DNA from: Deltaproteobacteria bacterium
GTDB taxonomy: Bacteria; UBA10199; JACPAL01; JAHFST01
Direction: 5' to 3'
DNA: 64,000 nucleotides
Assembly (NCBI GenBank): GCA_023265625.1
Contig: JAHFST010000014.1
Span: 8,005-72,004 of the forward strand
Shown: one piece after another, positions 18,543 to 49,608 of the stretch
How the letters are laid out: every line of letters begins with the position of its first letter
Position numbering within the stretch: position 1 is the first letter of the stretch
Position numbers and translations under genes: made by a program
Notes under the pieces: model-generated
Seen by the model: only the letters and a program-made list of their open reading frames with translations
What the model was told of the DNA's origin: nothing
Databases searched by the model: none

Positions 18543-18547
18543 CCATT

Positions 18548-29600: not shown

Positions 29601-30395
29601 GCCAATCCACCTTCTACTGATACTCCCAGTGCGGTTGTCCCAGAACAAAAACAGAACGGCCAAATTGTCAATGTTGCCAAGGAACAACAGCATCAGGAAG
29701 CGATGCCAAGTCTTGTTCTTCCCAACCTTCAGGTCATGATTTGCCCCGAGGGATGGCACGAGGCGATCGTCAGTTCTGGGCCGAACATGGGGAAGAGGAT
29801 ACCTTTGGATGAGGCCTGTCCTGATTTTCCTGATGAGCTTTTCAAAAAAGGTTTAGATAATTTAGATCCCAATGTGAAGGCGCTGGTAAACCCGATGGGT
29901 GCCTTTGTTCATGACTCAGATAATAAAGAATTATTGCATCAGATTAGCCAACTCACGATTTCGGCCTTTGACAGTTACCTCAAGGGGGCAGATCTTCCGA
30001 TACTGGGTGTCAGTCTCCCTAAGGGGGAATCACAAAATGGGACTTTGGTGCTCGAAGATCAATTGCCATCCAGGACTGTATTGAACAAATTGTTGCTTCG
30101 TGGCCAGTCCAGTATCTCCGTTAAGGACGATGGTTCCATCCTGGTGCCTTCGATCAGTCCTGCGGAACTTGCTCAGCTGGTGCCGAACCAGCCTCAGGCG
30201 TTGGCACTCAATGCGACGTCTCCATTTGGCCCAGCGGACTCGATCTTCACCGTGGTTCCCGTTTTGGGAACAGAAGGGGGAGGTCGCGGGGGCTGTAGTT
30301 TGATGTTGGAGTCCTCGGTACGTTCTCATCAGGCTGTTGGGGAGGCCTTGCAAAAGATGTCATGGCATGATTGGATTGTTTCCTGGTTCCATTAG
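26640..30395 (+). CDS. large secreted Cys-rich repeat protein (about 27-aa DDGNxCTxDxCxxGxxxH modules), Pro-rich spacer, C-terminal GGCSL motif
   Basis: Signal peptide MRLPLLTLLTLALSLVLFPVKG. Dozens of two-Cys modules. PPPPPITPPTPVKDPQTPP linker. GTG start. Confidence 0.8.
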   Translation: MRLPLLTLLTLALSLVLFPVKGWSNPLCAPGSPGCVGGTTGGFTTGGLTGGGTLPGPCTNFDIKQCTLGDPCKTATCVEYVDASHAKQAKCGPVTDLPDPESGLKTECNDRVCDSNQGGWVDKPLDGISCDDGDLCNGKEVCQAGSCQAGAKVVVPASTTCQTFSCDTATGLVVSKNKADGTPIADDGNVCTNDVCQGGKEIHPNKANGTILGVDGNACTQDICQNGKAYPAVSDGTKIADDGNLCTDDICKAGKPVHPVLSDGTLCSDGDACNGPEVCQSGLCKAGTPPVKPQDSLCTTYVCDKITGYVAQSKADGTPIADDGNSCTNDICQGGKETHPATADGTKIPDDGNPCTVDQCKGGKGVHEANDSLIPSDDGNECTNDLCVGGQAVHPNNNKILSSDNNVCTDDVCKDGVKYPTKADGTPIADDGNICTNDICQAGKEAHPAMADGTKIPDDGNPCTVDQCKGGKGVHEANDSLIPSDDGNECTNDLCVGGQAVHPNNNKILSSDNNVCTDDVCKDGVKYPTKADGTPIADDGNICTNDICQAGKEAHPAMADGTKIPDDGNPCTVDQCKGGKGVHEANDSLIPSDDGNECTNDLCVGGQAVHPNNNKILSSDNNVCTDDVCKDGVKYPTKADGTPIADDGNICTNDICQGGKESHPAVADGTVLGNTDSNICTQDRCINGQAQHEVILAEDDHDACTKDLCDPTFGMKHELIDKSEMDDNNDCTIDYCDKNNGVQHKAVGSNDGDACTVDTCDAQGGVKHGPVDTDDGDPCTLDSCDPATGVQHIAIADEACVAKPACTPIVCPAVVQADENGKAILACQINFNFEFADEFQYVQYKEGIFIDCNQDALFAQGDDIDGYTGQCQSHVTFISNQATQLNIQAYVRKSIIGQGPITFCPAAVTVMPPLPAFKEPPPPPPITPPTPVKDPQTPPKDSPIIPEPIADHKTDADPIVTAPVENPIPQDKIPTPVAQPVDTNPSSANPPSTDTPSAVVPEQKQNGQIVNVAKEQQHQEAMPSLVLPNLQVMICPEGWHEAIVSSGPNMGKRIPLDEACPDFPDELFKKGLDNLDPNVKALVNPMGAFVHDSDNKELLHQISQLTISAFDSYLKGADLPILGVSLPKGESQNGTLVLEDQLPSRTVLNKLLLRGQSSISVKDDGSILVPSISPAELAQLVPNQPQALALNATSPFGPADSIFTVVPVLGTEGGGRGGCSLMLESSVRSHQAVGEALQKMSWHDWIVSWFH
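27582..28648. repeat. 3.3 tandem copies of a 324-bp (108-codon) unit inside the Cys-rich protein gene
   Basis: Copies 27906-28229 and 28230-28553 look identical by eye. Copy 27582-27905 differs only in its first ~130 nt. A partial fourth copy runs to ~28648. The ORF track shows identical spurious ORFs at period 324. Confidence 0.9.
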
Positions 30396-30396
30396 G

Positions 30397-31659
30397 ATGC
30401 CCCCAATGCCCTTTCTCAGTTTCTTTCGTGGTGCCAACGAGGTCATGCGATTCCCGCTCCCGCCCGGTCCTGTCAAGATAGGTCGTCATCCCAGTTGCGA
30501 CATTAACCTCCCTGACGAAGCCATTTCTCGTTTTCATGCGGTGATTGAATTGCGTGGCGAGCAGTTTTGGATTGTGGATCAGAGCCGGAATGGGACGGCC
30601 TGCAATGGCCAACCCGTGGATAGCCAAGTTTTGCTGGATCGAGATGAATTAACCCTGGGGCCCTGGCGCGTGGTTTTTGTCCAAGAGGAGTCTTGGAGCG
30701 AACGCGAGACGGCGGTGGTGAAACAGAAAAGTTCTACCCGGACATTTTGCGGCATGGTGGGTCGGTGTGAAGAGATCCAGAAGGTCTTTTCCTTGATTGA
30801 AAAGGTGGCCAAGGGGGATTTGACGATCATGATTTTGGGAGAGACGGGGAGCGGTAAAGAGCTCGTGGCCCGGGCGATTCATGATTTGTCGCTGCGGGCG
30901 CGTGAGCCTTTTGTGACCCTCAATTGTGGGGCCATCTCGCCGCAGTTGATTGAATCGGAATTATTCGGCCATGAAAAGGGCGCCTTTACGGGGGCGATTT
31001 CAAGGCATACCGGGGCCTTTGAGCAGGGCTCCAATGGGACCCTGTTTCTCGATGAGGTTGGGGAGTTACCCTTGGAATTGCAGCCAAAGTTATTGCGTGT
31101 TTTGGAGCATCAGCGGTTTAGACGGGTGGGGGGGCAGGAAGAGATCAATACCGATGTGCGAATTTTGGCGGCGACTCATCAAAATTTGGAAACCAAAATT
31201 CGCGATGGGCAATTTAGGGAAGACCTATTTTTTCGCCTGTATGGGGTGCCCATTGTCATCCCGCCACTGCGAGAGCGCTCCGAAGATATTCCCCTGCTGG
31301 TTGATTTCTTTCTGGGGCAACTTCAGTCGGGAACTTATAAGAAGCCGAGTGCGAAGACGATGGAAAAACTGAAAAAATATCCCTGGAAGGGTAATGTTCG
31401 GGAGCTCAAGAACACGCTTGCCAGGGCGCTTTTGTTGTCCACCGGGAAGGAAATTCTCCCCTCAGACGTGATTTTTCCGGAATGGAAACAGCCTGAACCT
31501 CAGAGTGTTACGTTGCAAAATCGAGAGTTGGACAACATTCGCGATGCCTTGAAAAGACACCAATGGAACAAAAGTGCCGCCGCCGCCGAACTGGGTATTG
31601 CCAAATCAACGCTCTTTCAGAGGATTAGAGATTACAATATTAAAGACGAGGGGTACTAA
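30397..31659 (+). CDS. FHA-domain sigma54-dependent transcriptional activator
   Basis: FHA ([42 protein letters not shown]), AAA+ ([14 protein letters not shown]), HTH ([14 protein letters not shown]). ATG 30397 sits directly after the upstream stop. Confidence 0.85.
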
Positions 31660-32389: not shown

Positions 32390-32629
32390 ATGGCGGTGGC
32401 AAAAGTGGCAATTACTCTCGATAGGAAGTTATTGAGTCAGGTAGATGGTCTCGTGCAGCGAGGTCGTTTTTCCAACAGGAGTCAGGCTATCCAGGCGGCG
32501 GTACGGGAAAATTTGCATCGTTGGGAGCGCAGGCGTTTGGTACAGGAAGTCATGAAACTCGATACGGATGAGGAGAGGGGTTTTGCTGAGGAAGTTTTTA
32601 CGGGAGAGTCTCCTTGGCCAGAGTACTGA
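32390..32629 (+). CDS. RHH (CopG-type) antitoxin of a MazF/PemK toxin
   Basis: VAITLDRKLLSQVDGLVQRGRFSNRSQAIQAAVRE RHH pattern. Overlaps the toxin gene. Confidence 0.7.
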   Translation: MAVAKVAITLDRKLLSQVDGLVQRGRFSNRSQAIQAAVRENLHRWERRRLVQEVMKLDTDEERGFAEEVFTGESPWPEY

Positions 32630-32952
32630 GAGGCGAAATCTATTGGGCCGATCTCGACCCCGTGAAGGGCCATGAGCAAGCGGGCCGTCGACCGGTCTTG
32701 GTGATCAGCCATGATATCCTCAACGAACGTTCAGGCACCGTGATCGCCTTGGCGCTTACCAGTAAATCACCCAAGGCGGGTTATCCTCTGACCTACGGTC
32801 CCCTCAAGCAGTCACGATTAGCAAAACTCTCGTGGGTCAAGATCAACCAGATCAGGACCATTTCCACAGAACGGTTGGGAGACAGGATAGCGAAAGTTGC
32901 CGAAGAAGAGATGCAGGATGTCATTGAAGGTCTCCTGGAGCTGGTTGGGTAG
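32614..32952 (+). CDS. mazF: MazF/PemK-family endoribonuclease toxin
   Basis: RGEIYWADLDPVKGHEQAGRRPVLVISHD is the hallmark MazF N-terminus. Confidence 0.8.
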   Translation: MARVLRGEIYWADLDPVKGHEQAGRRPVLVISHDILNERSGTVIALALTSKSPKAGYPLTYGPLKQSRLAKLSWVKINQIRTISTERLGDRIAKVAEEEMQDVIEGLLELVG

Positions 32953-33288: not shown

Positions 33289-34314
33289 TTAAACTCCGGG
33301 AATCGGTAGGAGTGAAAGAGGTAGAATGGAGGCTGGGTTTCGCTTAACTAGGGTTTCATAAAGCAAGAATGCCCTTTGGTCCCAATCCATACCCAGGTCG
33401 TCGGCCAGATCCCGCCGGACTTCAACCGGTTCGGTCAAATAGAGGCCTATTCCTCCAAGGAGGTCTTGCAATGTGTTCGGTTCTTGATCCGGATGGCCTT
33501 CCAAGAAGCGTTTCAACAAGACATCCTGACGTTCCATTCTGCCTGCCAATTTTCGATAGAAATCAAACCGCAGTGCGGCGTAGTGGCCCGATCCGCAAAT
33601 CACTTCGGCCGCGTAGCTTCGTACGGAGGAGGGAAGATCGGGGCGACGCGCTGGTGCTTTGTCCAGGATGGTCCAGCCTTTTTGCTCGGCCAGGCGCCGA
33701 AATTTTGAATCGGGCTTCACCGCAAAAACTTGGGCCCAGCCGAATTGGAGGGCCATGTCGCGGTCCCAATAGGAGTCGGTATAGACCGCATGGGCCGTAA
33801 GACCTTGGGCCTCAAAAAGGGCGCCCAGAATATTGGGTTTTTTCCTTCCCGTGACCGGCATCGGCCAAAAACCATCATTGACGTACAGATGGTCCGCTTG
33901 AAGACGCCGCAGCAGCGGTTCGGCAAAGGGACGAAAGGCTCCGGTGATCAGGACAGTGGTCTGCAGGTTGGCGCGTCGCAGGGCCAACTCCTCCGCCATA
34001 TGGGGAAAGATCAGGTGTCCCAGGTCCTGTTCGGAAAATTGTGCGAGCTTTTCCTTGTACAAGGGATGTTGGCTGAGCCTTTGGGACCACTTCAACAAGG
34101 GGCGCAGGCTCCCAAAAGAGGGTACCCTACTCCAGGCCCACAAGGGGAGGGTGAATGGGTGGGCCAGGACTCCGAGCAGGGCCAAAGGGTGGTTCTTGGC
34201 CAGATAGTTTATTCCCATGCGTCCGCTATTGGGAGCAAGGGTGCCGTCGAGGTCGAAGGCGACCGCCATCTTTCGGGCGGCTGTGGGAAGTCGTGAAAGG
34301 GGGAGCAACATCAC
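33289..34314 (-). CDS. HAD-IB family hydrolase fused to an unknown ~115-aa C-terminal domain
   Basis: HAD motifs FDLDGTL (I), ITGA (II), GRKKP (III), YTDSYWDRD (IV). GTGATG start overlaps the stop of the 1893-aa gene. Confidence 0.7.
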   Translation of the reverse strand: MMLLPLSRLPTAARKMAVAFDLDGTLAPNSGRMGINYLAKNHPLALLGVLAHPFTLPLWAWSRVPSFGSLRPLLKWSQRLSQHPLYKEKLAQFSEQDLGHLIFPHMAEELALRRANLQTTVLITGAFRPFAEPLLRRLQADHLYVNDGFWPMPVTGRKKPNILGALFEAQGLTAHAVYTDSYWDRDMALQFGWAQVFAVKPDSKFRRLAEQKGWTILDKAPARRPDLPSSVRSYAAEVICGSGHYAALRFDFYRKLAGRMERQDVLLKRFLEGHPDQEPNTLQDLLGGIGLYLTEPVEVRRDLADDLGMDWDQRAFLLYETLVKRNPASILPLSLLPIPGV

Positions 34315-37300
34315 GCCGCTGCTTGCGTTTTTTTCGGGATGAACGCTTCTTTATGGGCCCGTTTTACCATATCGCGGATGGTCTCGTGATCCTTAGGATC
34401 GGCATGGCGCCAGAGTGCTTCTGCCAGACGTTTGAAACGGGCCTTGCCTTCCTCTGTGTCCTCTTCGCGTGCGAACAATTCGGCATGATGGACCAACAGC
34501 TCTTGGGCCTTGGCCTGATTGTCTTTGAGGGCGGCAAGGATGTCATAGGCGTTACGCTCACTGGGGAAGAAGATGTGGATCAAGTTCTGCACGAAATCTC
34601 CCAAGCCCGGCCATTCAAAGTCGTCAAAGATTCTCGCCAATCGTCTGATGCTGGCTTCAAAACCATGCTCGTCCATCCGAATGCGCGTGACCTGGAGGAA
34701 TCCACCCACTAGGCTTTGCTCTCCTCCGCTCAAGAGGATTGCTTCCTGGAGAAGACGGTCGAGTAGTTGTTGGCCGACTTCCATATCGGAAGTAGGGGCC
34801 ACCTCACCTCGGGCGGTTCGTTGTGTCCTAATGTCATCAATGATGCTGTTGACCACTCCCACGAGGAGAGACTGCATGGCAGGGCCCACTCCTAGCTTTA
34901 AAATCTCTTGCATGTCTTTACCGGCATTTTTTAGTCCCCCGAACACATGTGCCGCACCCAGAAAACCGTCGTAACCTCCCTGCACAGCTTCCTGGAGATG
35001 ATCACCAACGCTTGCAATGTGTCCTCGGATAAGTTCTTGATGACGTCTTAACGTCAATCTCACTTCGGCCGGCACCCGTTCATCTGAGGCCAATTTTTCC
35101 ACGGCCCAGTTTAGGAGTTGCGGTCCCAAAACCTTGGCAACGACACCGTATGCCTCCACCATTTTACGGGGCTCCATGGGGTAGTCCTTGTCAGTGATGG
35201 AACGAGCCAAACGTAACAAGAGGTTTTTCTCGCGCGAGCTTTTGCTCGTGAGCGACAAGGCATAAGTGCCGATCAGGAGTAACGCTTGTATGGCCTTGCT
35301 TTGCGGCAGATCTTTGCCGATGGCCCCGGCGGCTTGATGCTGAGCGAGATTGCCGATCCACATGAGGGTCGTTTTGAGTTGGTCCAGCGCGCCGCTTCGT
35401 TCCATCTTAGGATAGTCGGGCTTTTGACGAACCGCATGCACCTGGTCATTGTAGAGACGTTTGGTCAGGAGGTCGGACAAGAGTTCATGAGCCCTTGGCC
35501 TATGTTCAGCTTTCAAGAGAAGGATGGCCCGTTCGAGCATGGTATGTTCGGATTGTTTCATTAAGGGACGAAACGATCCCTTTTTCGGCCTTAGCCGTTC
35601 GACCGCGCTTTTTTTACGATAGGGTGAAGCCCCAGCGATCAATGCTCCGTCTTGTTCCAATAATTCCGCCAGTTCCCGAGCGGTTCTTGCCATGGACTCT
35701 AATTCTGGCTTTGCCATTGCTCTCAAGTCATTAAAGGTCGCTACAGCCAGGTCTTTGGCTTTTCGAGAACTTTCTAGATAAAGGCCGCGGGTATCTTTTC
35801 TCCTGATCGGAATAGTCATGGGGTCATCGTTGAGTCCCTTGACCTTATCGGTGCGTCGTGCCCGTGCCACTAAGGTCCATTGGGGAGGTGATTCGACTTC
35901 TCCCACACCGTCTCGTTCCATGGCACGGAGGGTGGAGAGGACGGACCCATCCCGTCCCCTGTTGAGCCGGGCCTTGGCATGACTATCCGGTTGTGGCCCC
36001 ATCGATCGGACGGCGATGTATCGCTCCAATGGATTGGCCGTAAAACGTTCCGGCTGGTAGACCCTCACTTGTGTGGGCATGATGCCAAACGGATTGAGGC
36101 CTAGGCTGCGTTTTTCCGAACTTTCTCCGCGCCGATTGGCGGAGACCGCGTGCCATGCGTTGACCGCCCGATCGTCGGCCAAGTCATCGTAAGGGCACAG
36201 GCCGCGATATTTGCAATGGACATCCCCTTTGTTTCTCAGGATCAGCTCGATGTCATGACGTTCCGCATCGGTGAAGAGGGGTTCCCCTCCCGGGCCTCTT
36301 GCCAGTGGGTCGAAGTGGGCCGCGCGGTAACGGTTCAAGATCGAGGTCACATACTCGGCTATCTGGGTCCGCGTGATGATTTTCTTTTCCGCGATGGCTT
36401 GTCGGATGGCGTTTTCGATATCCTGTTCCCTCCATCCGTAGAAATCGATCCCCAATAAGGCGTTGAAAAAGGCCCGCGCCAGCGGTGTTTTTGTGGCGTT
36501 TTTGGCCATCTCATAGATGCGCGATTCCATCGTTGAGCTGTACAGGACCGGGGCCTTACCCGTTTGAGCGCGGTAACCGATCAGAAAAGCCACCGCCTCG
36601 GGGCGGAGGTTGATGTGTTCCGTGAACTGGGTGATCTTGGAGAGGAACTGTTCTTCATCCTCAACGGAGCGAGGGGGTCCCGTCATCCAATCGACCACTT
36701 CCCGATACAAGATATCGGGGATGTCCTCTTCGATTTCAAAGACATGGTCCCAGAGAAAACCGTCGCCATCGAATGCCGTGGTCGTTCCATGGGCCACATT
36801 TTTTTCCCCCTTGGAAGCGCCACGTTGTACCATCTCTTGCAAGACCCGCCGGGCCGTATCCGTGCCTTGTTTGGGGAATCCTTTCAGGAGGGCCTTCGCC
36901 CGATCGGGCGGCATGACTCGGTCTAAACGGAGTTGTTCGGGAGTGCGTATTGTCTTGGCCTCACGACGGCCTCGCGTGTCATACGACGGCGGAGGAGACA
37001 TGTCGGTCAAGCGATCCACCATGTGTCGATAGGTCCCGTGCCAACTCTCATACATCTGTTCTTCACGGGGCAGGGCACGCAGCTCCGCTTCCCGATGTTT
37101 TTGTGCTTCATTTTGTGCTGGAGCGACGGCCAGATCCATCATGGCCGAGGCGTCTTCCTCTTGCAGCCAGAGGACGGCGCAGTTGTTCACCTTTTGCATC
37201 AGATAGTCCATGTCGCCTTCCGAGAGAGGCGAGCCGTCTTCATAGGTGAATGAAACACCATGACCTGCCAGCGCCTCTTTGACCTCTTCTCCACTGAGCA

Positions 37301-39992
37301 GGCTCCTGGATAAGATGGGGAGCATAAAACCGATGTGTCGCGCCACATCGCGCGTGATATTCAGCCCGCCATCCTGATTAATATTGTCCAACATCTGGGC
37401 GACCCTTGCCTCTAATTGATTGGAGGCGTCCAAGTTCCAAGTCTTTTCCGGGGTAGCCAAGTTACCGCCGTGAATGATCGGTTGCAGGACGATTGGGCGA
37501 CCATGACCTTTGGAACGTTGTTGCCAGATCGAGGCGACTCGTACCTCCATACCGGTGGCATAGGCATCAGTCACGATGCGAGCGGCATGAAGATTGGCAT
37601 AAGAAATTTCGCCATCTTTCCCAATTTTTGTGGGGGTTCGGTAATGGGAAAAACCGACCCCGGAACCATCGCGTGTTCCCGTAAAGTAAAACATCGATTC
37701 CTTGGTAAAGAGCAGCATTTCATAGAGCAGTTCCAAGACGGCATCGGCCCCCTTGGTGCGATCCAAAATCCCGGCCATGGCCTTTCCATAGGGACCGGCC
37801 AGGGGCATATCGGCGGCACCGCCCTGCATGAGTTGCGGCGTGGGTAGGCCCAAGGTTGCCATATAGACAAAGATGCGGAATTCCTCGATCCCGGTGTGAT
37901 TGGCGAGTGCTAGGATGGGCAGCAGATAATGTTGGAGTCTCTTAAAATATCCCTCAGGATAGACCTTGTGCTCCGGATCGGAGAGCTCCAGATCGGGTTC
38001 CGGGCTTTGGCGCAGGGTGAGGACCGCCTGATCCTGCAATCCATAAACGATTGTTTTGCCGCCAGTGCCCTTGCGGAACCCGGAACCGGCGGTGCTTGCC
38101 TTGGCATGGACATAATTTCTGTCGGTTGCCTTACGATCGGCCAAATTAAACCATTTGTTGATGGTATCGTTGAGGGTGAGCCCCAGCTCATCCCGTAGGA
38201 CGCCGAATTTATCCATGAAATCGGCCAGCCAGGAACGGACATCGTCCGGATTGATCCCGCGTGAGATGGCCTCTTCAAAGGCGGTGAAGACGTTGTTATC
38301 CGCGAACGAAATCCAGGAAGGCCGTGTGGGATGTTGGTGGATCTTGTACAAATCTTCCAGAAAAAGATTGATCACATAGGCCATCAACGCCATCTCGGCC
38401 TTGTTTTTGGAATTGCGGCTGTGAGGACGGGCACTGACATCCTCGCCACTGGCAAGTCCCTTCCAATATTTTATGTTATCCCTATGTTTTGTCTCCAACA
38501 GGGCCATGCACTCTGCAAAATAGTCCTGATGATCGGTAACGACGGGCTGTCCCGCCGCCGTGGCAAAGTTACTGAGGCGATTAAACTCGGCATGGAAACG
38601 TTCGACTTGGAACTGATAATCCAGCTCTTCACGCTCCAGGGTCAATTCTGTTTGTAGTTCTTGATGCCTCCAAGTGGCCGGGGCAATGTGTTTCAAAAAG
38701 GACTTCATTTCTTGCTGATAGGCGGTTTCTGTTTCTCGGTAATGGGCCACCGCCGTCGAGACGGAGTCGATGGCGGGAGAGTGCCATTGAATCTGTTTTT
38801 CGGGTTGATCAAAGGGGAACAGTTGTTCTCGGAAAAAGGTCAGGTCTTCTTCGTCCGTATCCAGGATTTGATAGCCGGCCAGCAGGCGCCCATAAACCCG
38901 CTTGGCATGGGCCGACAACAGGTCCAGTCGATGAAATTCTCCCCTATTTTTTTCCACATCCCGTGCGACTGTGGCCCAGCCGGTCAAGCTGTCAAAGACA
39001 TAGTTGGCCTCCAAGGCCAGGGCTTGACGTTTGAGGAAACCGACCACTTCCGGGTCGGGACTGGGGCCTGCTGCGTAGAGTTCCGCCTCGTGACGCGCCT
39101 CTAAAATGCTGAAGCGCAACGGATCAATGCCGCGGGAAGACAGATATTTGTTGTCGTAGATGGCCCGTTCGAGACGGTCTTTGGCCTCATTCAAAATCTT
39201 GGGGCTCGGTCGTCCACCCGCTGCTTCAATGGCCTTCAGGACCTCCTGATTAGACGCTTCGTAGCGATCATGAAGTTTTACGATCTGCGCTGCGGTTCTC
39301 ATGTAACTGTCACGTGCGGGCTGCGGCATCCGGGTGAGCTGATCCTGGTAATAGGCGTCCAGCGCGGTATCGTCGTGTTGTGCAGCCTCCATCATGCGCC
39401 GTTTTTCCTCGCGGCTGTTGGGTCGGGGGATCGCGGCTTGCACAGTGCGGGTGTGGCGGAAACAACCGGGTTCATTTTCAAAGGGCTTTTCAGGCGGTTG
39501 GATACCAATGGCCTGTCTGGTCTGCTCTAGTCCGAGTCCGATCGCATCACTCACCACTGTGCCACCGGGGCTGAGGGTGGGACTCCCGCCGCGACCCGGG
39601 ATGAAGCGACTGGGGAGCGGTATTTGGCCCGGCACCAGGTCTGTTGGGGCCGAGGCCATGACAAAGGCCTCCAGCGAGCCGCCTTGGGTCAAGCGTTGCA
39701 AGGTCATGGAGAGTTCGGACAGGGAAATTTCTGAAACACTGCTATCGGACAATGATCCTAAAAGGGCTCGGTCCATCACCCCCAAGAGGCGAAAACCAGA
39801 TTGGCCAGTTTGACCCAGGACGGTGTTTAATTCGAGACCGGCCTGCAGCAGGCTGGCCCGAACGGTCTCCGGGGCTACTCGTTCCGCCTCCCAGGTGCGG
39901 AGGGACGACAGAGTTGCCTGCGCCCACCCCGTGAAGCTTGCCGCTCCGATGGGAGGGGAGGCTGTTCCAGTGGTTGTTGGAAGCACACCCAT
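34311..39992 (-). CDS. giant orphan protein (1893 aa), no recognisable domain
   Basis: Uninterrupted 5.7-kb ORF with coding-like composition. Only short spurious ORFs lie on the opposite strand. No Walker A, HExxH or GxSxG found by eye. No signal peptide or TM seen. Confidence 0.75.
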   Translation of the reverse strand: MGVLPTTTGTASPPIGAASFTGWAQATLSSLRTWEAERVAPETVRASLLQAGLELNTVLGQTGQSGFRLLGVMDRALLGSLSDSSVSEISLSELSMTLQRLTQGGSLEAFVMASAPTDLVPGQIPLPSRFIPGRGGSPTLSPGGTVVSDAIGLGLEQTRQAIGIQPPEKPFENEPGCFRHTRTVQAAIPRPNSREEKRRMMEAAQHDDTALDAYYQDQLTRMPQPARDSYMRTAAQIVKLHDRYEASNQEVLKAIEAAGGRPSPKILNEAKDRLERAIYDNKYLSSRGIDPLRFSILEARHEAELYAAGPSPDPEVVGFLKRQALALEANYVFDSLTGWATVARDVEKNRGEFHRLDLLSAHAKRVYGRLLAGYQILDTDEEDLTFFREQLFPFDQPEKQIQWHSPAIDSVSTAVAHYRETETAYQQEMKSFLKHIAPATWRHQELQTELTLEREELDYQFQVERFHAEFNRLSNFATAAGQPVVTDHQDYFAECMALLETKHRDNIKYWKGLASGEDVSARPHSRNSKNKAEMALMAYVINLFLEDLYKIHQHPTRPSWISFADNNVFTAFEEAISRGINPDDVRSWLADFMDKFGVLRDELGLTLNDTINKWFNLADRKATDRNYVHAKASTAGSGFRKGTGGKTIVYGLQDQAVLTLRQSPEPDLELSDPEHKVYPEGYFKRLQHYLLPILALANHTGIEEFRIFVYMATLGLPTPQLMQGGAADMPLAGPYGKAMAGILDRTKGADAVLELLYEMLLFTKESMFYFTGTRDGSGVGFSHYRTPTKIGKDGEISYANLHAARIVTDAYATGMEVRVASIWQQRSKGHGRPIVLQPIIHGGNLATPEKTWNLDASNQLEARVAQMLDNINQDGGLNITRDVARHIGFMLPILSRSLLSGEEVKEALAGHGVSFTYEDGSPLSEGDMDYLMQKVNNCAVLWLQEEDASAMMDLAVAPAQNEAQKHREAELRALPREEQMYESWHGTYRHMVDRLTDMSPPPSYDTRGRREAKTIRTPEQLRLDRVMPPDRAKALLKGFPKQGTDTARRVLQEMVQRGASKGEKNVAHGTTTAFDGDGFLWDHVFEIEEDIPDILYREVVDWMTGPPRSVEDEEQFLSKITQFTEHINLRPEAVAFLIGYRAQTGKAPVLYSSTMESRIYEMAKNATKTPLARAFFNALLGIDFYGWREQDIENAIRQAIAEKKIITRTQIAEYVTSILNRYRAAHFDPLARGPGGEPLFTDAERHDIELILRNKGDVHCKYRGLCPYDDLADDRAVNAWHAVSANRRGESSEKRSLGLNPFGIMPTQVRVYQPERFTANPLERYIAVRSMGPQPDSHAKARLNRGRDGSVLSTLRAMERDGVGEVESPPQWTLVARARRTDKVKGLNDDPMTIPIRRKDTRGLYLESSRKAKDLAVATFNDLRAMAKPELESMARTARELAELLEQDGALIAGASPYRKKSAVERLRPKKGSFRPLMKQSEHTMLERAILLLKAEHRPRAHELLSDLLTKRLYNDQVHAVRQKPDYPKMERSGALDQLKTTLMWIGNLAQHQAAGAIGKDLPQSKAIQALLLIGTYALSLTSKSSREKNLLLRLARSITDKDYPMEPRKMVEAYGVVAKVLGPQLLNWAVEKLASDERVPAEVRLTLRRHQELIRGHIASVGDHLQEAVQGGYDGFLGAAHVFGGLKNAGKDMQEILKLGVGPAMQSLLVGVVNSIIDDIRTQRTARGEVAPTSDMEVGQQLLDRLLQEAILLSGGEQSLVGGFLQVTRIRMDEHGFEASIRRLARIFDDFEWPGLGDFVQNLIHIFFPSERNAYDILAALKDNQAKAQELLVHHAELFAREEDTEEGKARFKRLAEALWRHADPKDHETIRDMVKRAHKEAFIPKKTQAAA

Positions 39993-40048
39993 AGTTTTAA
40001 TTTATCCATGCCAGTCTTGAAGACCTGGAGCGGATAGATTTCCTCCCT

Positions 40049-40846
40049 TTATCCGGTTTTTTCCGTTTTGGCATTTGCGACTAGGATGCCCGAGTCAAAC
40101 AACAATACGCCGTCAAGCAGAGGGATGATGGTTGATTCATAATCGGTGTATAATTTTGCTCCATCGATCACCCCGGCCTCGAACTTCGCCAAAAGCTGGC
40201 AGCCTGTGTTCATGGCATCGGCAAGCTTTTTGGAGTCATAGGTGACCCCGATGTTGGCTTTGGGTAGTGCCAAGAGCCCCCGTGTCAGACCTCCTGCCAG
40301 TGCTCCTAAGAGCGGATTGGCTGTTGCAGCACCCACGGCAAGAGCTACCACGGGACCAGCAAATGCCTGGAGGTAACCCAGGAGTCCCGGCTTTGTGGCT
40401 CTGAGCAGTTTTAGCGGAGCCGCCCTTTTTGAGAAGTGTTTGACCGAGTCATGATCGGCGTTCATCACGAGCGTATTGATCAACATGGCGACAAACACAC
40501 CTTCCACGGTGGCATGAGCGCCAAACATGACGACATTGCCCACGCCGGCGAGACCCTGTGAGGCGGTGTCGGCAAAGGCGTGTCGTCCGGCCAACGCATT
40601 GACGCGGCGCTCTTCCGAGACGGATGCGAGCAGTTTGTGGCCTATTAGCGCAACCTGTTCATAGACATAACGGACCTTGGGATCAGTTGAATTCCCGGCC
40701 TTGCCAAAACGAGAGTTCATGGGGTCGACGACGTTTCTGGCCTCGATCGACTTACGGCCTCCGACAGACGCCGATTCGGCGACCCGTGTGAGGCCGCCCG
40801 CACCCATGCCGGTTAGGAACATAAAGCCACTTGTGAGATCCACCAT
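40049..40846 (-). CDS. hypothetical Gly/Ala-rich protein with glycine-zipper-like segment
   Basis: AAGGAGG SD. GPVVALAVGAATANPLLGALAGGLTRGLLAL. Confidence 0.6.
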   Translation of the reverse strand: MVDLTSGFMFLTGMGAGGLTRVAESASVGGRKSIEARNVVDPMNSRFGKAGNSTDPKVRYVYEQVALIGHKLLASVSEERRVNALAGRHAFADTASQGLAGVGNVVMFGAHATVEGVFVAMLINTLVMNADHDSVKHFSKRAAPLKLLRATKPGLLGYLQAFAGPVVALAVGAATANPLLGALAGGLTRGLLALPKANIGVTYDSKKLADAMNTGCQLLAKFEAGVIDGAKLYTDYESTIIPLLDGVLLFDSGILVANAKTEKTG

Positions 40847-40918
40847 AAAAATTCCTCCTTTTTCGTTCAGTTTATGACCGCCCTATGTTTATTATCGGCA
40901 GTCGGTGTTATTAGTTGC

Positions 40919-42187
40919 TTAGCCTGTTCTCAAAGTTTGATTTCCCTCATATGCTACCCATTTTTGAAGCTGACGGACGACCTCTTTAGCCGCTTCATAA
41001 CTGTCCGATTGGGCCATCAGGGGGGGTGGAGACCTGAGACCCAAATTGTCCAATATCCTCTGGGCTGCCTCGTTGTTTCGCTCCGAGTAAGTCAAAACGG
41101 GGAGAAGATGGACTCCGAGATTGCCGAATCGACCTTTCGAGCCATTTGACAGTTCCTTGTGAAAGTCCTTATGATCATGGTTTCTGGCGCCTTCCACCCA
41201 CGCCGGCAGATGAAACGGCCCCTTTTTCTTTCTTGTTAAGGTTTGCCACCACCCTGCTTTTTCAAGAGGATACATGGCGTTTGAAGGAGACAGTAAGATG
41301 ACTGGATTTTCGGTGGGACGTTCGTCGATTTGTAAATGAGCGAGGGCGCGAAGGGTATGGCGAACGCCATCACGGATCCCGATCAGGACCAGTGGTTTCC
41401 CGGGATAGAGCTCCACTTTTTCTTCCATCAGGGCGATATGCGCCTTTGTTGGAGCTTCCATGGCCCATTTCTTTTGAATCCCGGCCTGCCGCAACCCCCC
41501 TTTGTTTGACATTAGCGGGTCATAGGGACTGCCGATCAACGCAACATCAAATCCGTGAAAGTCATTGGACAACATCCGGGCCAATCTGTGAAAATCGTTG
41601 GGGAGGGCGAAATCAGGAAGGGCGACAATTACGCGGCCGCGCGTCTCATTCCTGGGTCGCGCCGCGGCTGCGGCGGGGCGATAGATCGGGAGTCCCGCTA
41701 TCCGTCTCATCGTAAAACCGGTCTTTTCGCAGGCCGCTTTCAATAGGGTGTTGTCCGATCTCGAGACGACGTTTTGGATATCGGCCAGCAAGCGGTTGGC
41801 GTGACGAATGACCAAACCTTGGCGCGTGAACCAATAGAGCACTCGTAAAAATCCGAATATTGCGGCGCTGGTGATGAGCCAAGAGATCAGGTGAGACTGC
41901 CCCATCGCCCCATTAAAATTCGCCACCGCCGCATCCACCTGATGCCCCACCGTTGACGCATGGTGTTGCAACTCCGGCACCTTTCCCAACTGCCCATCAA
42001 GGAGCCGTCCCAGCTCGGTGTCACTTGGGCCGGACAAGGCCTGTTTATAAAAATCGTCAAAGTTCGGGACCTTACCCGGGGCCTCCTGGCCAAGTGCCAC
42101 CCCGCTGGTGAACAGTGTAAGCGCACCAGCCACCGCTTTGCCGTGCTGCGTTGCGAGCGACTGCGTCAATTTTCCCGTAAAATTCAT
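40919..42187 (-). CDS. hypothetical membrane-associated protein (422 aa)
   Basis: N-terminal hydrophobic stretch AVAGALTLFTSGVALG, TM LISWLITSAAIFGFLRVLYWF. The C-terminal globular part is unassigned. Confidence 0.6.
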   Translation of the reverse strand: MNFTGKLTQSLATQHGKAVAGALTLFTSGVALGQEAPGKVPNFDDFYKQALSGPSDTELGRLLDGQLGKVPELQHHASTVGHQVDAAVANFNGAMGQSHLISWLITSAAIFGFLRVLYWFTRQGLVIRHANRLLADIQNVVSRSDNTLLKAACEKTGFTMRRIAGLPIYRPAAAAARPRNETRGRVIVALPDFALPNDFHRLARMLSNDFHGFDVALIGSPYDPLMSNKGGLRQAGIQKKWAMEAPTKAHIALMEEKVELYPGKPLVLIGIRDGVRHTLRALAHLQIDERPTENPVILLSPSNAMYPLEKAGWWQTLTRKKKGPFHLPAWVEGARNHDHKDFHKELSNGSKGRFGNLGVHLLPVLTYSERNNEAAQRILDNLGLRSPPPLMAQSDSYEAAKEVVRQLQKWVAYEGNQTLRTG

Positions 42188-42251
42188 AGCACTTATAGGA
42201 TCGGCAGGTTTGGGGAAAGGTTGCTAAAAAATCGGTTTTTTTTGAAAAAAA
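42090..42251. repeat. copy A of a duplicated ~160-bp segment (5' end of the 422-aa gene plus upstream control region)
   Basis: Aligns with 45003-45163. The non-coding core 42200-42251 is nearly identical between copies. Confidence 0.8.
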
Positions 42252-42334: not shown

Positions 42335-42667
42335 ATGAAGCTGCCAAATTCTGAGTTGGTTCTCGTCGAGAAAGATAAAATTGTGAATTATCTTCTTTGT
42401 GCGGACCATCCTGATGGTGGTAGCAAGGCAAGGTTCTTTCAACGTTTTGGCTTTACTATAGGGGAATGGCCTGCTTTGGTACAAGCGCTGAGCAGGCATG
42501 GGCAGGAGAACGAGGTGATCATTAAGGTAGAATCTTCTTATGGGATGCGTTACACTGTTGAAGGATTGATTGAAGCACCGGATGGGCGTAAGCCTAGGAT
42601 ACGTACGGTATGGATTATAGAAAAAGAGGAGAAAAGGCCTCGTCTAATCACGGCTCATCCAGCATAG
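42335..42667 (+). CDS. DUF6883-like protein
   Basis: MKLPNSE..., DKIVNYLLCADHPDGGSKARFF..., GMRYTVEG..., RTVWIIEKEEKRPRLITAHP match my recollection of the DUF6883 family pattern. GGGGGGA SD. Confidence 0.6.
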   Translation: MKLPNSELVLVEKDKIVNYLLCADHPDGGSKARFFQRFGFTIGEWPALVQALSRHGQENEVIIKVESSYGMRYTVEGLIEAPDGRKPRIRTVWIIEKEEKRPRLITAHPA

Positions 42668-42678
42668 GGGGTGTTAAA

Positions 42679-42915
42679 ATGAAGGAACATGACCGAGTTG
42701 TTCTGAAGTGTGAATTGCCTGACCAAGGCCTAGAAGCTGGTGACGTAGGAACGATTGTACATATTTATAAAAATGGTGAGGCCTTTGAGGTCGAATTTGT
42801 TTCTCTTGATGGGGAAACAACAGTCCTGGCTACCGTTTCTTCTTCACAGGTGCGTTCCGTGCATAGGCGTGAAATTACTCATGCACGGCAGATGGAAACC
42901 AATCTTACAACATAG
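42679..42915 (+). CDS. DUF4926-like protein
   Basis: DRVVLKCELPDQGLEAGDVGTIVHIYKNGEAFEVEF matches the family pattern as I recall it. Paired with the DUF6883 gene. Confidence 0.6.
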   Translation: MKEHDRVVLKCELPDQGLEAGDVGTIVHIYKNGEAFEVEFVSLDGETTVLATVSSSQVRSVHRREITHARQMETNLTT

Positions 42916-42916
42916 C

Positions 42917-43287
42917 TCAGCAAATGTCTGTTGTACGTAGCAAAATGGATCCATTGAAATAATCGTCCAACGCCTTTTGGGTAATCGCACACAGCACGCG
43001 TTTTTTGCCGTCATTCCCGTTGAACAAAACAGCATCCCGATCAAGGTTGTACCGCTCCTTGGTTCCGAGAATACGAGCTTTCGTTGGTCCACCATGCCCA
43101 AGGTTGTCAGGATGACCATGACAGAGGATAGCTGGATGTCTTTCTCGCCATTCTCAAAACGCGAGAGGGTAGGCGTGCTGACACCGGCCAGTAGCGCCAA
43201 CTGTTTTTGTGTCAGCCGCTCTGCCTTGCGTCTTTGCTTCGCCTCTTCGACAAGTGCTGGCCAGTTAATTTGAAACTGCCGTTCCAT
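42917..43287 (-). pseudogene. XRE-type HTH + DUF1488-like gene disrupted by a frameshift near 43060
   Basis: From ATG 43287 (GGAGAAACG SD): MERQ...LTQKQLALLAGVSTPTLSRFENGEKD...LVFSEPRS. The alternative frame then continues ERYNLDRDAVLFNGNDGKKRVLCAITQKALDDYFNGS...* and stops at 42917. Confidence 0.55.
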
Positions 43288-43716
43288 CGTTTCTCCAATC
43301 GTTCCAACAATTGATCCCGCAATCCCTTCGGCCCGATGACTGACTTTGCCAAGGCGTGCATGGCGGATGAAAGCCAGGATGCGCCGGAAGAGACGATCCG
43401 CTTCGGCCGGAATGGACCCCGGTGTTTTCATAATGAAGCGGCCCATGTCTTCGTAAGCGCCCTGATATTTGTCGTCCGAAAAATGTCCCAAGAGTTGGTT
43501 GAATTCCTCGAAATGAATGCGCTTTCCCGATGCACTTCTGTCAAACCGGGGGATCACGAGTGCCTCCTCCTTGATGGAGGGTATTTTGGCGATTTCCATC
43601 TCCACCACATCGTCATTGGGCAAGAGTTTGCGCACGACGAGGCTGATGAGATATTCCAGGGCCATCAGGTGGGCCAGATGGCCAGACGCCAGCTTCTTGC
43701 GCTGGACACCGGACAA
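43288..43716 (-). pseudogene. hipA-like kinase fragment (middle part only)
   Basis: SLSGVQRKK, IPRFDR, IHFEEFNQLLG, KYQGAYED and ADRLFRRIL resemble HipA. The N-terminus and the catalytic DxHxKN region are missing. Fused in frame to the next gene. Confidence 0.5.
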
Positions 43717-44971: not shown

Positions 44972-45002
44972 TGAGAGTTAGAAGATAAATGGAAGGTCAT
45001 TG

Positions 45003-45163
45003 CCAAATGCCACCCCGCTGGTGAGCAGCGTGCCTACCCCGACGGCCAGTTTGTCGCGCTGCGTTGCGAGCACCTGCGTCACATTTTTCGTGTCAAACAC
45101 AACACTTAAGCATCGGCAGGTTTGGGGAAAGGGTGCTAAAAAATTGGTTTTGTTTGAAAAAAA
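45003..45163. repeat. copy B of the duplicated segment (truncated 5' gene remnant plus control region)
   Basis: The minus strand reads ..VTQVLATQRDKLAVGVGTLLTSGVAFGN, versus KLTQSLATQHGKAVAGALTLFTSGVALGQ in copy A. The ATG is lost. Confidence 0.8.
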
Positions 45164-45866: not shown

Positions 45867-45882
45867 GCAATCATGAGGGATT

Positions 45883-46560: not shown

Positions 46561-46608
46561 TTTTATCAATAACGTTTAACTATATAACCTAAAAGGAGGA
46601 GTAAAATC

Positions 46609-47412: not shown

Positions 47413-47440
47413 TATCAAGTTGAACGAGGGAGAGTAAAAC

Positions 47441-49474: not shown

Positions 49475-49608
49475 CAGAGAGTTTTTCCCAGACCGATGGT
49501 CCTCTCCAAAAATTTACTAGAAGTTATTGCAATAAATTTATAGAACTTGACGCTTATTTATTATGAAATAACAAGAAACTTTTTCCGTGATGAGCCGATA
49601 ATACTGTT

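What the first reader, a model, noticed from the sequence alone, without database searches (positions are those of the whole stretch)
33289..42187. Four-gene operon built around an 1893-aa orphan protein: candidate undescribed system
Four co-directional, tightly packed minus-strand genes:
- A 422-aa protein with an N-terminal hydrophobic stretch and one TM segment.
- A 265-aa Gly/Ala-rich protein with a glycine-zipper-like segment.
- An 1893-aa protein.
- A HAD-IB hydrolase fused to an unknown domain. Its GTGATG start overlaps the giant gene's stop, which implies translational coupling.

Reading the 1893-aa sequence by eye, I find no P-loop, HExxH, GxSxG, Fic or protease signature. I also find no internal repeats, no signal peptide and no TM segment.

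The operon is flanked by toxin-antitoxin modules on both sides (mazEF at 32.4-33.0 kb; DUF6883/DUF4926 and hipA remnants at 42.3-43.7 kb). That is the typical context of accessory, defence or effector islands. A membrane protein, a glycine-zipper protein, a giant soluble protein and a phosphatase-like enzyme together do not match any described system that I know.
Basis: inference. Interest (0 to 1): 0.75.

Follow-up and report, generated by a model that had tools for sequence, protein, structure and literature searches.

The report
Giant protein with hidden acyltransferase core
The 1893-residue gene belongs to a rare, unnamed family of giant bacterial proteins that probably contains a lipid-type acyltransferase core, but the three genes packed around it are not its regular partners, so this is a new protein family and not a new four-gene system.

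Summary
All four minus-strand ORFs exist exactly as described: tightly packed, with a giant/HAD stop-start overlap and native codon usage. The giant ORF is not an assembly artefact, because independent assemblies give the same sequence.

The giant is not a true orphan. An exhaustive HMMER search found seven relatives, and eight loci were examined in all. The relatives are 1,440-2,366 aa long, 21-34% identical and colinear over the whole length. None has a Pfam, NCBIfam, PADLOC or PDB match.

In none of the other loci is a relative of the 422-aa, 265-aa or HAD protein next to the giant. A full-length HAD relative stands alone elsewhere. The "quartet" is therefore specific to this lineage.

Profile-profile comparison puts the centre of the giant (aa ~690-830) in the PlsC/GPAT (LPLAT) acyltransferase superfamily: 85% probability, E 6e-6, specific to that segment. 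H699-x4-E704, R745 and G772-T-R774 are invariant in the family. The Pfam model itself does not hit, and the AlphaFold model is poor there. A second, confidently folded alpha/beta domain (aa ~1010-1290) has invariant charged residues and no fold match.

Toxin-antitoxin genes lie within 2 kb of the giant in 4 of 8 loci; in one, giant plus TA splits a riboflavin operon.

Verdict: a new giant protein family, probably an acyl-transfer enzyme. The four-gene system is not supported.

The parts
40919..42187 (-). p422: lineage-specific protein with a signal-peptide-like N-terminus (aa ~17-34), one TM segment (aa 99-118) and a ~300-aa C-terminal domain of unknown family
   Evidence: ORF and translation. 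Hydropathy. No Pfam, NCBIfam, PADLOC or PDB hit. Only a self hit in 5.8 billion proteins. Native GC3 and codon usage.
40049..40846 (-). p265: Gly/Ala-rich small membrane protein with 3-4 hydrophobic segments. It has a good Shine-Dalgarno site (AAGGAGG) 8 nt upstream.
   Evidence: No family hit. Not homologous to the small membrane proteins next to other giants.
34311..39992 (-). Giant gene (1893 aa), a member of a rare unannotated family of 1,440-2,366-aa proteins
   Evidence: 30% identity over 1,902 aligned positions to P0005. Conservation is roughly even from aa ~100 to the C-terminus.
39438..39992 (-). Giant aa 1-185: variable, Pro/Gly-rich N-terminal region, probably disordered. It carries the family motif PPxDLxPG near aa 118-125.
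   Evidence: Composition. Alignment. Lowest conservation of the protein.
38238..39350 (-). Giant aa ~215-585: all-helical domain with very long helices (one of 74 residues)
   Evidence: AlphaFold2 model, pLDDT 70-90. No fold match in the PDB.
37503..37925 (-). Giant aa ~690-830: divergent LPLAT (PlsC/GPAT-type) acyltransferase-like core. Motif residues are H699-x4-E704 (motif I), R745 (motif II) and G772-T773-R774 (motif III).
   Evidence: hhalign against a PF01553 mini-alignment: Prob 85%, E 6e-6, 113 columns. A control alignment gives 0.09%. In a sliding-window scan only this segment hits; all other windows and the reversed target give <=0.8%. The motif residues are invariant in the family. 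The Pfam HMM itself gives no hit, and the model is poor here (pLDDT <50).
36123..36965 (-). Giant aa ~1010-1290: confidently folded alpha/beta domain with invariant D1075, D1077, D1082, R1158, R1208, D1257, H1259, K1261, D1273, D1274, R1275 and N1278. It is also present in the family member that lacks the LPLAT part.
   Evidence: AlphaFold2 pLDDT 80-93. Invariant columns. No fold match in PDB or BFVD. No Pfam hit.
34314..35645 (-). Giant aa ~1450-1893: helical C-terminal region with moderately hydrophobic helices
33289..34314 (-). HAD-superfamily phosphatase-like gene with a conserved ~120-aa C-terminal extension. Its start overlaps the giant's stop.
   Evidence: PF12710, 52 bits. Catalytic motifs conserved in P0003 and P0004. 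Junction sequence. The relative in L004 is stand-alone.
42084..42251 (-). The p422 upstream region plus its first ~35 codons. This is copy 1 of a ~170-nt direct repeat; copy 2 is at 44997-45163.
44997..45163 (-). Copy 2 of the repeat: a decayed duplicate of the p422 promoter and signal-peptide region. Together with copy 1 it brackets the block DUF6883/DUF4926, hipA remnant and DUF4143.
32390..32952 (+). mazEF-type toxin-antitoxin pair (RHH antitoxin + PemK toxin), convergent with the HAD gene. This is context, not part of the operon.
42335..42915 (+). DUF6883/DUF4926 gene pair, divergent from p422. This is context.

Best explanation
**What is there.** The four ORFs are real and are probably co-transcribed in this organism, but they are not a conserved multi-component system. 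Only the 1893-aa gene has relatives, and the same partners never recur next to them. It belongs to a rare, unannotated family of soluble giant proteins (about 1.4-2.4 thousand residues) found only in uncultured bacteria.

**Architecture of the family, N- to C-terminus:**
- a variable N-terminus;
- a long-helix domain;
- a divergent LPLAT (PlsC/GPAT-type) acyltransferase-like core that keeps the catalytic His-x4-acid dyad as H699-x4-E704, the motif II Arg (R745) and the motif III GTR (772-774);
- a second, well-folded alpha/beta domain with invariant acidic and basic residues and no recognisable fold;
- a helical C-terminal region.

**Proposed mechanism (inference).** The protein is a cytoplasmic acyl-transfer enzyme working at the inner face of the membrane. 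The His/Glu dyad would activate a hydroxyl or amine of an acceptor, possibly a phosphorylated one. The acceptor would then attack an acyl-ACP or acyl-CoA thioester. The flanking helical domains would act as scaffold or membrane-docking parts.

In this genome the translationally coupled HAD phosphatase may dephosphorylate the substrate or the product, by analogy with known HAD-acyltransferase fusions. The two small membrane proteins may tether the giant. These two links are specific to this lineage.

**Genomic behaviour.** The gene behaves as an accessory gene. It sits at a different chromosomal place in each genome, often with toxin-antitoxin modules.

**Shown:** the ORFs, the family, the lack of conserved partners, the motif conservation, the profile-profile similarity and the TA adjacency.

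**Inferred:** enzymatic activity, lipid substrate, membrane location and the role of the HAD protein.
For: - ORFs, spacing and overlap.
- Identical locus in independent assemblies.
- Family: 7 relatives in 1.84 billion representatives, plus L020 and L021. Full-length colinearity.
- Partners not conserved. The HAD relative is stand-alone in L004.
- LPLAT core: hhalign Prob 85%, E 6e-6, with motifs I-III in register. Control alignment 0.09%. Signal confined to aa 601-920 in a sliding-window scan, with reversed-target controls <=0.8%.
- N698, H699, E704, R745, G772, T773 and R774 are invariant in all members that have this domain.
- HX4D/E is the hallmark of GPAT/LPAAT-type enzymes (PMC6148475, PMC10593935).
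- In L016 and L020 a canonical PF01553 acyltransferase is encoded just downstream of the giant.
- A HAD-type phosphatase activity within a GPAT has a precedent: the sn-2 GPAT with phosphatase activity, a reference listed in PMC10593935.
- Native codon usage.
- No signal peptide or TM segment.
- TA genes beside the giant in the window, L018, L021 and L022.
Against: - The Pfam PF01553 HMM does not hit the giant, its mid domain or the family consensus, even at E <= 10.
- The family profile finds no PlsC or GPAT chain in the PDB.
- The AlphaFold model is unreliable exactly in this region (pLDDT <50), so the fold is unverified. Foldseek gives nothing.
- Motif III lacks its Glu (AGTR/TGTR), and motif IV is not evident.
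- One family member (P0011) lacks the whole LPLAT segment, so this domain cannot be the family's universal function.
- The universal alpha/beta domain has no assignable fold.
- The HAD link rests on one genome, plus a 20-codon hint in L005.
- The PF01553 comparison alignment had only 5 sequences.
Confidence: 0.5

Rival explanations
1. The four genes form a novel accessory system (defence, conflict or effector). The giant is the effector, the two membrane proteins are sensor or anchor, and the HAD enzyme is a modifier. The partners evolve so fast that homology is lost between genomes.
For: - Tight packing and stop-start overlap.
- TA modules flank the giant in 4 of 8 loci, and in L021 giant plus TA interrupts a riboflavin operon, as island cargo would.
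- Small, non-homologous TM or lipoprotein-like genes sit next to the giant in L018, L019, L020 and L022, as p265 does here.
Against: - No PADLOC hit for any of the four proteins.
- The partners are not detectably related in any other locus.
- L017 and L021 have no small unknown gene beside the giant.
- The HAD relative is stand-alone elsewhere.
- Codon usage is native.
- No relatives in plasmid, phage or IMG/VR collections.
- There is no nuclease, NTPase or other usual effector signature.
Confidence: 0.15
2. The giant is a non-enzymatic structural or scaffold protein (cytoskeleton-like or envelope-organising). The LPLAT-like segment is either a chance resemblance or a dead pseudo-enzyme domain.
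For: - Over half of the protein is long helices.
- PF01553 does not hit.
- Asp is replaced by Glu in motif I and Glu is lost in motif III.
- P0011 lacks the domain.
- Structural hits are only to helical repeat and coiled-coil proteins, at non-significant scores.
Against: - The His, the acid, the Arg and the GTR are invariant across members that are otherwise only 21-34% identical. That is not expected for a decayed domain.
- The hhalign signal is specific to this segment.
- The alpha/beta domain also keeps 12 invariant charged or polar residues, which suggests catalysis or ligand binding.
Confidence: 0.2
3. The giant is a secreted or injected toxin or effector, for example exported with help of the nearby type II secretion system or the membrane proteins. 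It would acylate a target in another cell.
For: - A T2SS gene cluster (gspC-F) lies 14-28 kb away in the same window.
- The size, the disordered N-terminus and the accessory behaviour resemble large effectors.
Against: - There is no Sec or Tat signal peptide, which T2SS substrates need.
- No secretion-system genes lie next to any homologue.
- No immunity-like gene is conserved next to it.
- The T2SS genes are on the opposite strand, far away and separated by unrelated genes.
Confidence: 0.08

Closest known systems
LPLAT / glycerolipid acyltransferase superfamily (Pfam PF01553: PlsC/LPAAT, GPAT, tafazzin-type)
   Same: - Motif I (H-x4-acid), motif II Arg and motif III GTR are present, in the same order and with the same spacing: H to R is 46 residues and R to GTR is 27-29.
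- Profile-profile probability is 85%.
- The HX4D/E charge relay defines these enzymes (PMC6148475).
   Different: - The Pfam model does not reach any threshold.
- Glu replaces Asp in motif I, motif III lacks its Glu, and motif IV is unclear.
- The domain is buried in the middle of a protein of about 1,900 aa. Canonical PlsC is about 250 aa.
- The fold is not verified.
PlsB-type large glycerol-3-phosphate acyltransferases (800-900 aa; e.g. PDB 9vuq, human GPAT1 8e4y)
   Same: In both, an LPLAT core is embedded between large, mostly helical accessory domains. These chains were used in the comparison alignment that the giant matches.
   Different: The giant is twice as long. It shows no sequence similarity outside the ~115-residue core and carries an extra alpha/beta domain with no counterpart.
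HAD phosphatase / acyltransferase pairs and fusions (plant sn-2 GPAT with phosphatase activity; annotated HAD-PlsC fusions such as M. tuberculosis Rv2483c, the latter from memory)
   Same: Here a HAD-type phosphatase with intact catalytic motifs is translationally coupled to a protein with an LPLAT-like core. The GPAT-phosphatase precedent is the reference listed in PMC10593935.
   Different: These are separate genes, not a fusion. The pairing is seen only in this genome, possibly also in L005. It is absent from all seven other giant loci, and the HAD relative in L004 is solitary.
Large single-gene or few-gene anti-phage systems in defence islands (those covered by PADLOC)
   Same: Large size, an accessory-like and variable chromosomal position, and frequent TA neighbours.
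   Different: No PADLOC model hits any of the four proteins. There is no NTPase, nuclease, TIR, SIR2 or protease signature. No partner gene is conserved.

Membership tests
LPLAT / PF01553 acyltransferase superfamily (giant aa ~690-830) | Motif I: catalytic H-x4-D/E dyad | tested here: met
   H699-TGIE-E704. His and Glu are invariant in all 7 family members that have the domain and align to the HxxxxD of PlsC/GPAT.
LPLAT / PF01553 acyltransferase superfamily (giant aa ~690-830) | Motif II (conserved Arg) and motif III (EGTR), in canonical order and spacing | tested here: inconclusive
   R745 and G772-T-R774 are invariant and align in register. The Glu of motif III is replaced by Ala/Thr/Ser. 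Motif IV is not identifiable.
LPLAT / PF01553 acyltransferase superfamily (giant aa ~690-830) | Significant match to the family's profile HMM | tested here: not met
   No PF01553 hit for the full protein, the mid domain or the family consensus, even at E <= 10. The family profile finds no PlsC or GPAT in PDB sequences.
LPLAT / PF01553 acyltransferase superfamily (giant aa ~690-830) | Profile-profile similarity specific to the domain | tested here: met
   hhalign Prob 85.1%, E 6.1e-6. Control alignment 0.09%. Of 17 sliding windows, only aa 601-820 (80.6%) and aa 701-920 (59.3%) hit. All reversed controls are <=0.8%. Caveat: the target alignment has only 5 sequences.
LPLAT / PF01553 acyltransferase superfamily (giant aa ~690-830) | LPLAT alpha/beta fold | tested here: inconclusive
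   The AlphaFold2 model has pLDDT <50 over aa ~590-890. Foldseek against the PDB gives no match.
LPLAT / PF01553 acyltransferase superfamily (giant aa ~690-830) | Acyl-CoA or acyl-ACP dependent acyl transfer | not testable with these tools
   Needs biochemistry.
HAD superfamily hydrolase (33289-34314) | Match to the HAD profile above the curated cut-off, plus catalytic motifs I-IV | tested here: met
   PF12710, 52.3 bits (cut-off 27), and PF00702, 29 bits (cut-off 26.4). DxDxT (D20, D22, T24), T123, K158 and D179/D183 are invariant in three homologues.
HAD subfamily IB (TIGR01488 / TIGR01490) | Score above the subfamily cut-off | tested here: not met
   TIGR01488 scores 19.9 bits against 45. 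TIGR01490 scores 19.7 bits against 98.3.
Known anti-phage defence systems (PADLOC-DB 2.0) | Any component matching a defence-system model | tested here: not met
   No hit at E <= 1 for any of the four proteins.
Conserved multi-gene system (operon-level family) | Co-occurrence of the same gene set in other genomes | tested here: not met
   Seven other loci with a giant homologue contain no relative of p422, p265 or HAD. p422 has no relative anywhere. The HAD relative is solitary in L004.
Type II toxin-antitoxin modules (flanks) | Toxin and antitoxin domain pair | tested here: met
   RHH_8/RHH_1 + PemK_toxin (106 bits) at 32390-32952. DUF6883 (122 bits) + DUF4926 (73.5 bits) at 42335-42915. The HipA_C fragment is fused to an HTH at 42844-43716.

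The most novel reading that the evidence does not exclude
The giants are a previously undescribed class of accessory 'mega-enzymes'. They combine an LPLAT-type acyltransferase core with a second catalytic-looking domain of a fold not yet seen. They move between chromosomal sites together with toxin-antitoxin modules and can even split core operons. Their role would be either a new kind of conflict or defence effector that acylates a cellular or invader target, or the synthesis of an unknown envelope lipid in uncultured lineages.
Probability: 0.25. Interest if true: 0.7.

Novelty: new variant of a known kind. Interest (0 to 1): 0.45.

Why it matters
If the central domain is a working LPLAT, this family would be by far the largest architecture known for that superfamily. 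It would point to an unknown acylation reaction, lipid or otherwise, in uncultured bacteria.

The second conserved domain folds confidently but matches nothing in the PDB or in viral structure predictions. That makes it a candidate new fold or new enzyme.

The recurrent pairing with TA modules and the insertion into a riboflavin operon suggest an accessory, possibly conflict-related role that current defence-system catalogues miss.

There is also a practical lesson. The 'orphan' label came from word-indexed search only. Exhaustive profile search was needed to find the family, and gene-neighbourhood comparison removed three of the four proposed components.

Tried and rejected
**Searches that gave nothing**
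- Word-index homology search of the giant: no hit.
- GTDB species-representative scan with the giant: no relative. The same scan with the HAD alignment gave only distant HAD domains of <=29% identity in Fibrobacterota, Chitinispirillaceae, Latescibacterota, Actinomycetota and Chloroflexi MAGs, so the organism could not be placed.
- PDB sequence searches with the single protein, the whole-family profile and the mid-domain profile: only noise, such as streptavidin, XPF and selenoprotein S.
- Foldseek of both AlphaFold models against the PDB and BFVD: only long helical proteins at TM <0.12.
- Plasmid, phage and IMG/VR searches: negative.
- Literature searches for the sample accessions and for 'giant protein / riboflavin operon': uninformative.

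**Ideas considered by eye and dropped or left open**
- An XPF/ERCC4 'GDY...ERK' nuclease motif in the mid domain: the Lys is not conserved.
- An ADP-ribosyltransferase R-STS-E pattern around 'FSSTM': the Arg is not conserved.
- A GT-A glycosyltransferase DxD motif (D1075-x-D1077) and a kinase-like 'DDRxEN' loop (aa 1273-1278): no fold support from Foldseek on a confident model. Left as open leads.

**Other negative results**
- No sigma-54 promoter lies upstream of p422.
- Synteny between the window and L004 through the neighbouring DUF4143 ATPases was rejected. They are only 23-27% identical, so they are paralogues.
- p265 against the Gly/Ala-rich membrane protein upstream of P0011: not significant (E 0.19).
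- A composition-based test for recent horizontal transfer of the four genes was negative: GC3 is 0.60-0.62, like the rest of the window.
Full report
**1. Observation**

The region contains exactly the four minus-strand ORFs described:
- HAD gene at 33289-34314;
- the 1893-aa gene at 34311-39992;
- a 265-aa gene at 40049-40846;
- a 422-aa gene at 40919-42187.

The gaps are 72 and 56 nt. The giant's TGA overlaps the GTG/ATG of the HAD gene (GCG GCG TGA TG). No terminator-like site falls in the gaps.

GC3 (0.60-0.62) and codon usage of all four genes match the rest of the window.

The same locus is 100% identical in independent assemblies: ENA ERZ27280176, ERZ27276474 and Logan SRR14366769. Logan SRR14366772 carries the same 1893-aa gene and the same neighbours. 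An assembly chimera is therefore excluded.

A regex and self-BLAST check confirms that the giant has no P-loop, HExxH or Fic motif and no internal repeat. The only GxSxG (aa 1058) is not conserved. Hydropathy shows no strong TM segment in the giant, one in p422 (aa 99-118, plus a signal-like N-terminus), and three to four in the Gly/Ala-rich p265.

The flanks are as stated: RHH + PemK/MazF at 32390-32952, DUF6883/DUF4926 at 42335-42915, and a HipA_C fragment fused to an HTH at 42844-43716.

**2. The giant is not an orphan**

No Pfam, NCBIfam or PADLOC model hits the giant, p265 or p422. Only the HAD gene hits (PF12710, 52 bits).

The word-indexed search of 5.8 billion proteins found nothing for the giant. 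A pattern scan of 185,579 GTDB species representatives also found nothing.

An exhaustive HMMER search with aa 200-1399 against 1.84 billion cluster representatives found seven relatives, with E from 1e-138 to 6.5e-10 and lengths of 470 (a fragment) to 2,366 aa. A metagenome scan added L020 and the full-length form of P0008 (L021, 2,014 aa).

BLASTP and MAFFT show colinear homology along the entire length, for example 30% identity over 1,902 positions to P0005. Conservation is roughly even from residue ~100 to the end. None of the relatives has a Pfam domain.

There are no relatives in plasmid, phage or IMG/VR collections.

**3. The quartet is not conserved**

I obtained the genomic context of seven other giants.
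- L016 and L020: the giant is followed by a 547/552-aa protein with a C-terminal PF01553 acyltransferase domain, then amidohydrolase and UbiD.
- L017: the giant lies between an amidohydrolase and PtsP plus futalosine-pathway genes.
- L018: two small paralogous ORFs precede the giant, next to an SLT-LysM gene and the ftsZ-ftsA-ftsQ-ddl-mur cluster. ParD and GIY-YIG genes lie 1.6 kb upstream.
- L019: the giant is surrounded by unknown genes.
- L021: the giant lies between ribD and ribE in a glyA-nrdR-ribD-[giant]-ribE-ribBA array on a 285-kb contig.
- L022: a 231-aa Gly/Ala-rich membrane protein precedes the giant, and an MNT/HEPN pair follows it.

BLASTP, phmmer (max sensitivity) and tblastn find no relative of p422, p265 or HAD in any of these loci.

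p422 has no relative at all.

The HAD protein has two relatives. One is 70% identical, on a 1-kb contig whose first 20 codons may be the end of a giant-like ORF (L005). The other is 37% identical over the full length including the C-terminal extension, and it stands alone beside an ATP-synthase operon (L004).

What recurs is only a loose theme: small, mutually unrelated membrane or lipoprotein-like genes sit next to the giant in five loci.

**4. What the giant is made of**

AlphaFold2, run with the 7-sequence family alignment, gives the following:
- a confident all-helical domain at aa ~215-585 (pLDDT 70-90, one helix of 74 residues);
- a poorly modelled middle (aa ~590-890, pLDDT <50);
- a confident alpha/beta domain at aa ~1010-1290 (pLDDT 80-93), extending to ~1450;
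- a helical C-terminal third.

Foldseek against the PDB and BFVD returns only long helical proteins, with TM-scores below 0.12.

By eye the middle carries the order and spacing of glycerolipid acyltransferase motifs. I then tested this.
- hhalign of the mid-domain alignment (A3) was run against a small PF01553 alignment. That alignment was built from the L016 and L020 acyltransferases and the PDB chains 9vuq, 5kym and 8e4y. The result is 85% probability, E 6e-6, over 113 columns. NHTGIEEF aligns to NHRSHLD, ILDR to TVDR, and FTGTR to IEGTR.
- A control against the HAD alignment gives 0.09%.
- A sliding-window scan of the whole family against the same target hits only aa 601-820 (80.6%) and 701-920 (59.3%). 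All other windows and all reversed-target controls are <=0.8%.
- N698, H699, E704, R745 and G772-T-R774 are invariant in every member that has the domain.
- HX4D/E is the defining charge-relay motif of GPAT/LPAAT-type enzymes (PMC6148475; PMC10593935).

Against membership:
- The Pfam HMM does not hit even the family consensus at E <= 10.
- The family profile does not retrieve PlsC or GPAT from PDB sequences.
- Motif III lacks its Glu.
- The fold is not verified.
- P0011 lacks the entire segment.

I therefore call it LPLAT-like with about 65% confidence.

The alpha/beta domain is universal in the family. It keeps D1075, D1077, D1082, R1158, R1208, D1257, H1259, K1261, D1273, D1274, R1275 and N1278 invariant, and it has no family or fold match. 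It is probably a second catalytic or ligand-binding module.

**5. Context and mobility**

TA genes lie within 2 kb of the giant in four of eight loci:
- the window: mazEF and DUF6883/DUF4926;
- L018: ParD;
- L021: a BrnA/CopG antitoxin 11 nt after the giant's stop, plus a frameshifted PemK;
- L022: an MNT/HEPN pair 69 nt after the stop.

In L021 the giant plus TA block interrupts a riboflavin operon that is normally contiguous (general knowledge). This points to insertion of accessory DNA.

In the window a ~170-nt direct repeat (42084-42251 and 44997-45163) duplicates the p422 upstream region (93% identical) and its signal-peptide codons (~71-80% identical, decayed). The two copies bracket the block of DUF6883/DUF4926, the hipA remnant and DUF4143. 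This upstream 'TA flank' is thus a secondary insertion or duplication at the p422 promoter, not part of an ancestral island architecture.

The overall picture is an old, ameliorated accessory gene that lands in different places, often with TA modules. PADLOC is negative.

**6. Mechanism (best guess, marked as inference)**

The giant is a cytoplasmic acyl-transfer enzyme. The H699/E704 dyad would deprotonate an acceptor hydroxyl or amine, which would then attack an acyl thioester. R745 and the GTR motif would hold a phosphate-bearing acceptor, as in PlsC and GPAT. The helical domains would provide scaffold or membrane docking. The second domain would carry out or regulate a further step.

In this genome the coupled HAD phosphatase has intact catalytic motifs. 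It could remove the phosphate of the substrate or the product. Precedents are GPATs with phosphatase activity (the reference listed in PMC10593935) and annotated HAD-PlsC fusions (from memory).

The canonical PF01553 gene just downstream of the giant in L016 and L020 fits a lipid theme. Because the partners vary and one member lacks the LPLAT part, I give the whole explanation 0.5 confidence.

Rivals:
- a fast-evolving conflict or defence system (0.15);
- a non-enzymatic scaffold with a dead domain (0.2);
- a secreted effector (0.08; no signal peptide, and no secretion genes nearby in any homologue).

**7. Limits**

- The organism could not be identified. It is absent from the GTDB representatives as far as the giant and HAD genes show. 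The gene content (sigma-54 activators with FHA domains, T2SS, Dicty_CTDC and TSP_3 repeat proteins) only suggests an uncultured Gram-negative lineage.
- The family alignment is shallow (8-9 sequences), which limits both AlphaFold and hhalign.

**8. Verdict**

'Orphan' and 'four-gene system' are not.

What is there is a new, rare family of giant proteins with a probable LPLAT-type acyltransferase core and a second domain of unknown fold. In this genome it is embedded in a lineage-specific operon with two membrane proteins and a HAD phosphatase.

Novelty: a new variant of a known kind. The enzyme superfamily is known; the architecture is unprecedented. Interest is moderate (0.45).

Noticed in passing
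window 42084-42251 and 44997-45163: A ~170-nt direct repeat. The p422 upstream region (55 nt, 93% identical) and its first ~35 codons (signal-peptide part, ~71-80% identical, ATG changed to GTG, frame dies soon after) occur a second time 2.9 kb away. The two copies bracket DUF6883/DUF4926, the hipA remnant and the DUF4143 ATPase. This suggests an insertion or duplication at the p422 promoter.
   Followed up: partly
window 42844-43716 (-): One 290-aa ORF combines a truncated HipA_C kinase domain (profile positions 31-130 of 213) with a C-terminal HTH_3 domain. It looks like a rearranged or decayed hipBA module. It overlaps the end of the DUF4926 gene on the other strand.
   Followed up: no
L021 9914-17051: A 2,014-aa giant homologue lies between ribD and ribE of a glyA-nrdR-ribD-ribE-ribBA array on a 285-kb metagenomic contig. 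A BrnA/CopG antitoxin gene and a frameshifted PemK/MazF toxin lie in the same insert. It looks like accessory cargo splitting a core operon.
   Followed up: partly
L016 7386-9029 and L020 6229-7887: A 547/552-aa protein with a canonical PF01553 acyltransferase domain at its C-terminus and an unknown ~330-aa N-terminal part is encoded directly downstream of the giant. In L020 a 312-aa membrane protein lies in between.
   Followed up: partly
L022 1687-6138 (P0011): This family member is 1,483 aa long and lacks the whole segment that holds the LPLAT-like core. It keeps the N-terminal block, the alpha/beta domain and the C-terminal helices. It is preceded by a 231-aa Gly/Ala-rich membrane protein and followed by an MNT/HEPN pair.
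   Followed up: partly
window 26640-30395 (+): A 1251-aa protein made of Dicty_CTDC Cys-rich repeats (148 bits). Its DNA shows a 324-nt periodicity: near-identical pattern hits at 27911, 28235 and 28559.
   Followed up: no
window 45174-52638 (+): Four consecutive genes without any Pfam match (230, 225, 267 and 677 aa) are followed by a 1009-aa thrombospondin type 3 repeat protein with a signal peptide. The 230-aa product ends in ...DARF, like outer-membrane beta-barrels. Before the 2.9-kb insertion this cluster would have been divergent from the p422 operon.
   Followed up: no
window 42188-42200 (-): p422 has no Shine-Dalgarno sequence. A TATAAG hexamer sits 4 nt before its ATG, so its mRNA may be leaderless. 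No consensus -35 or sigma-54 element was found.
   Followed up: no
window 143-2937, 30337-31659 and 13288-19780: There are three sigma-54 enhancer-binding proteins, one with an FHA domain, and a gspC-D-E-F type II secretion cluster. These are useful for placing the organism, which is not represented among the GTDB species representatives as far as the giant and HAD genes show.
   Followed up: no
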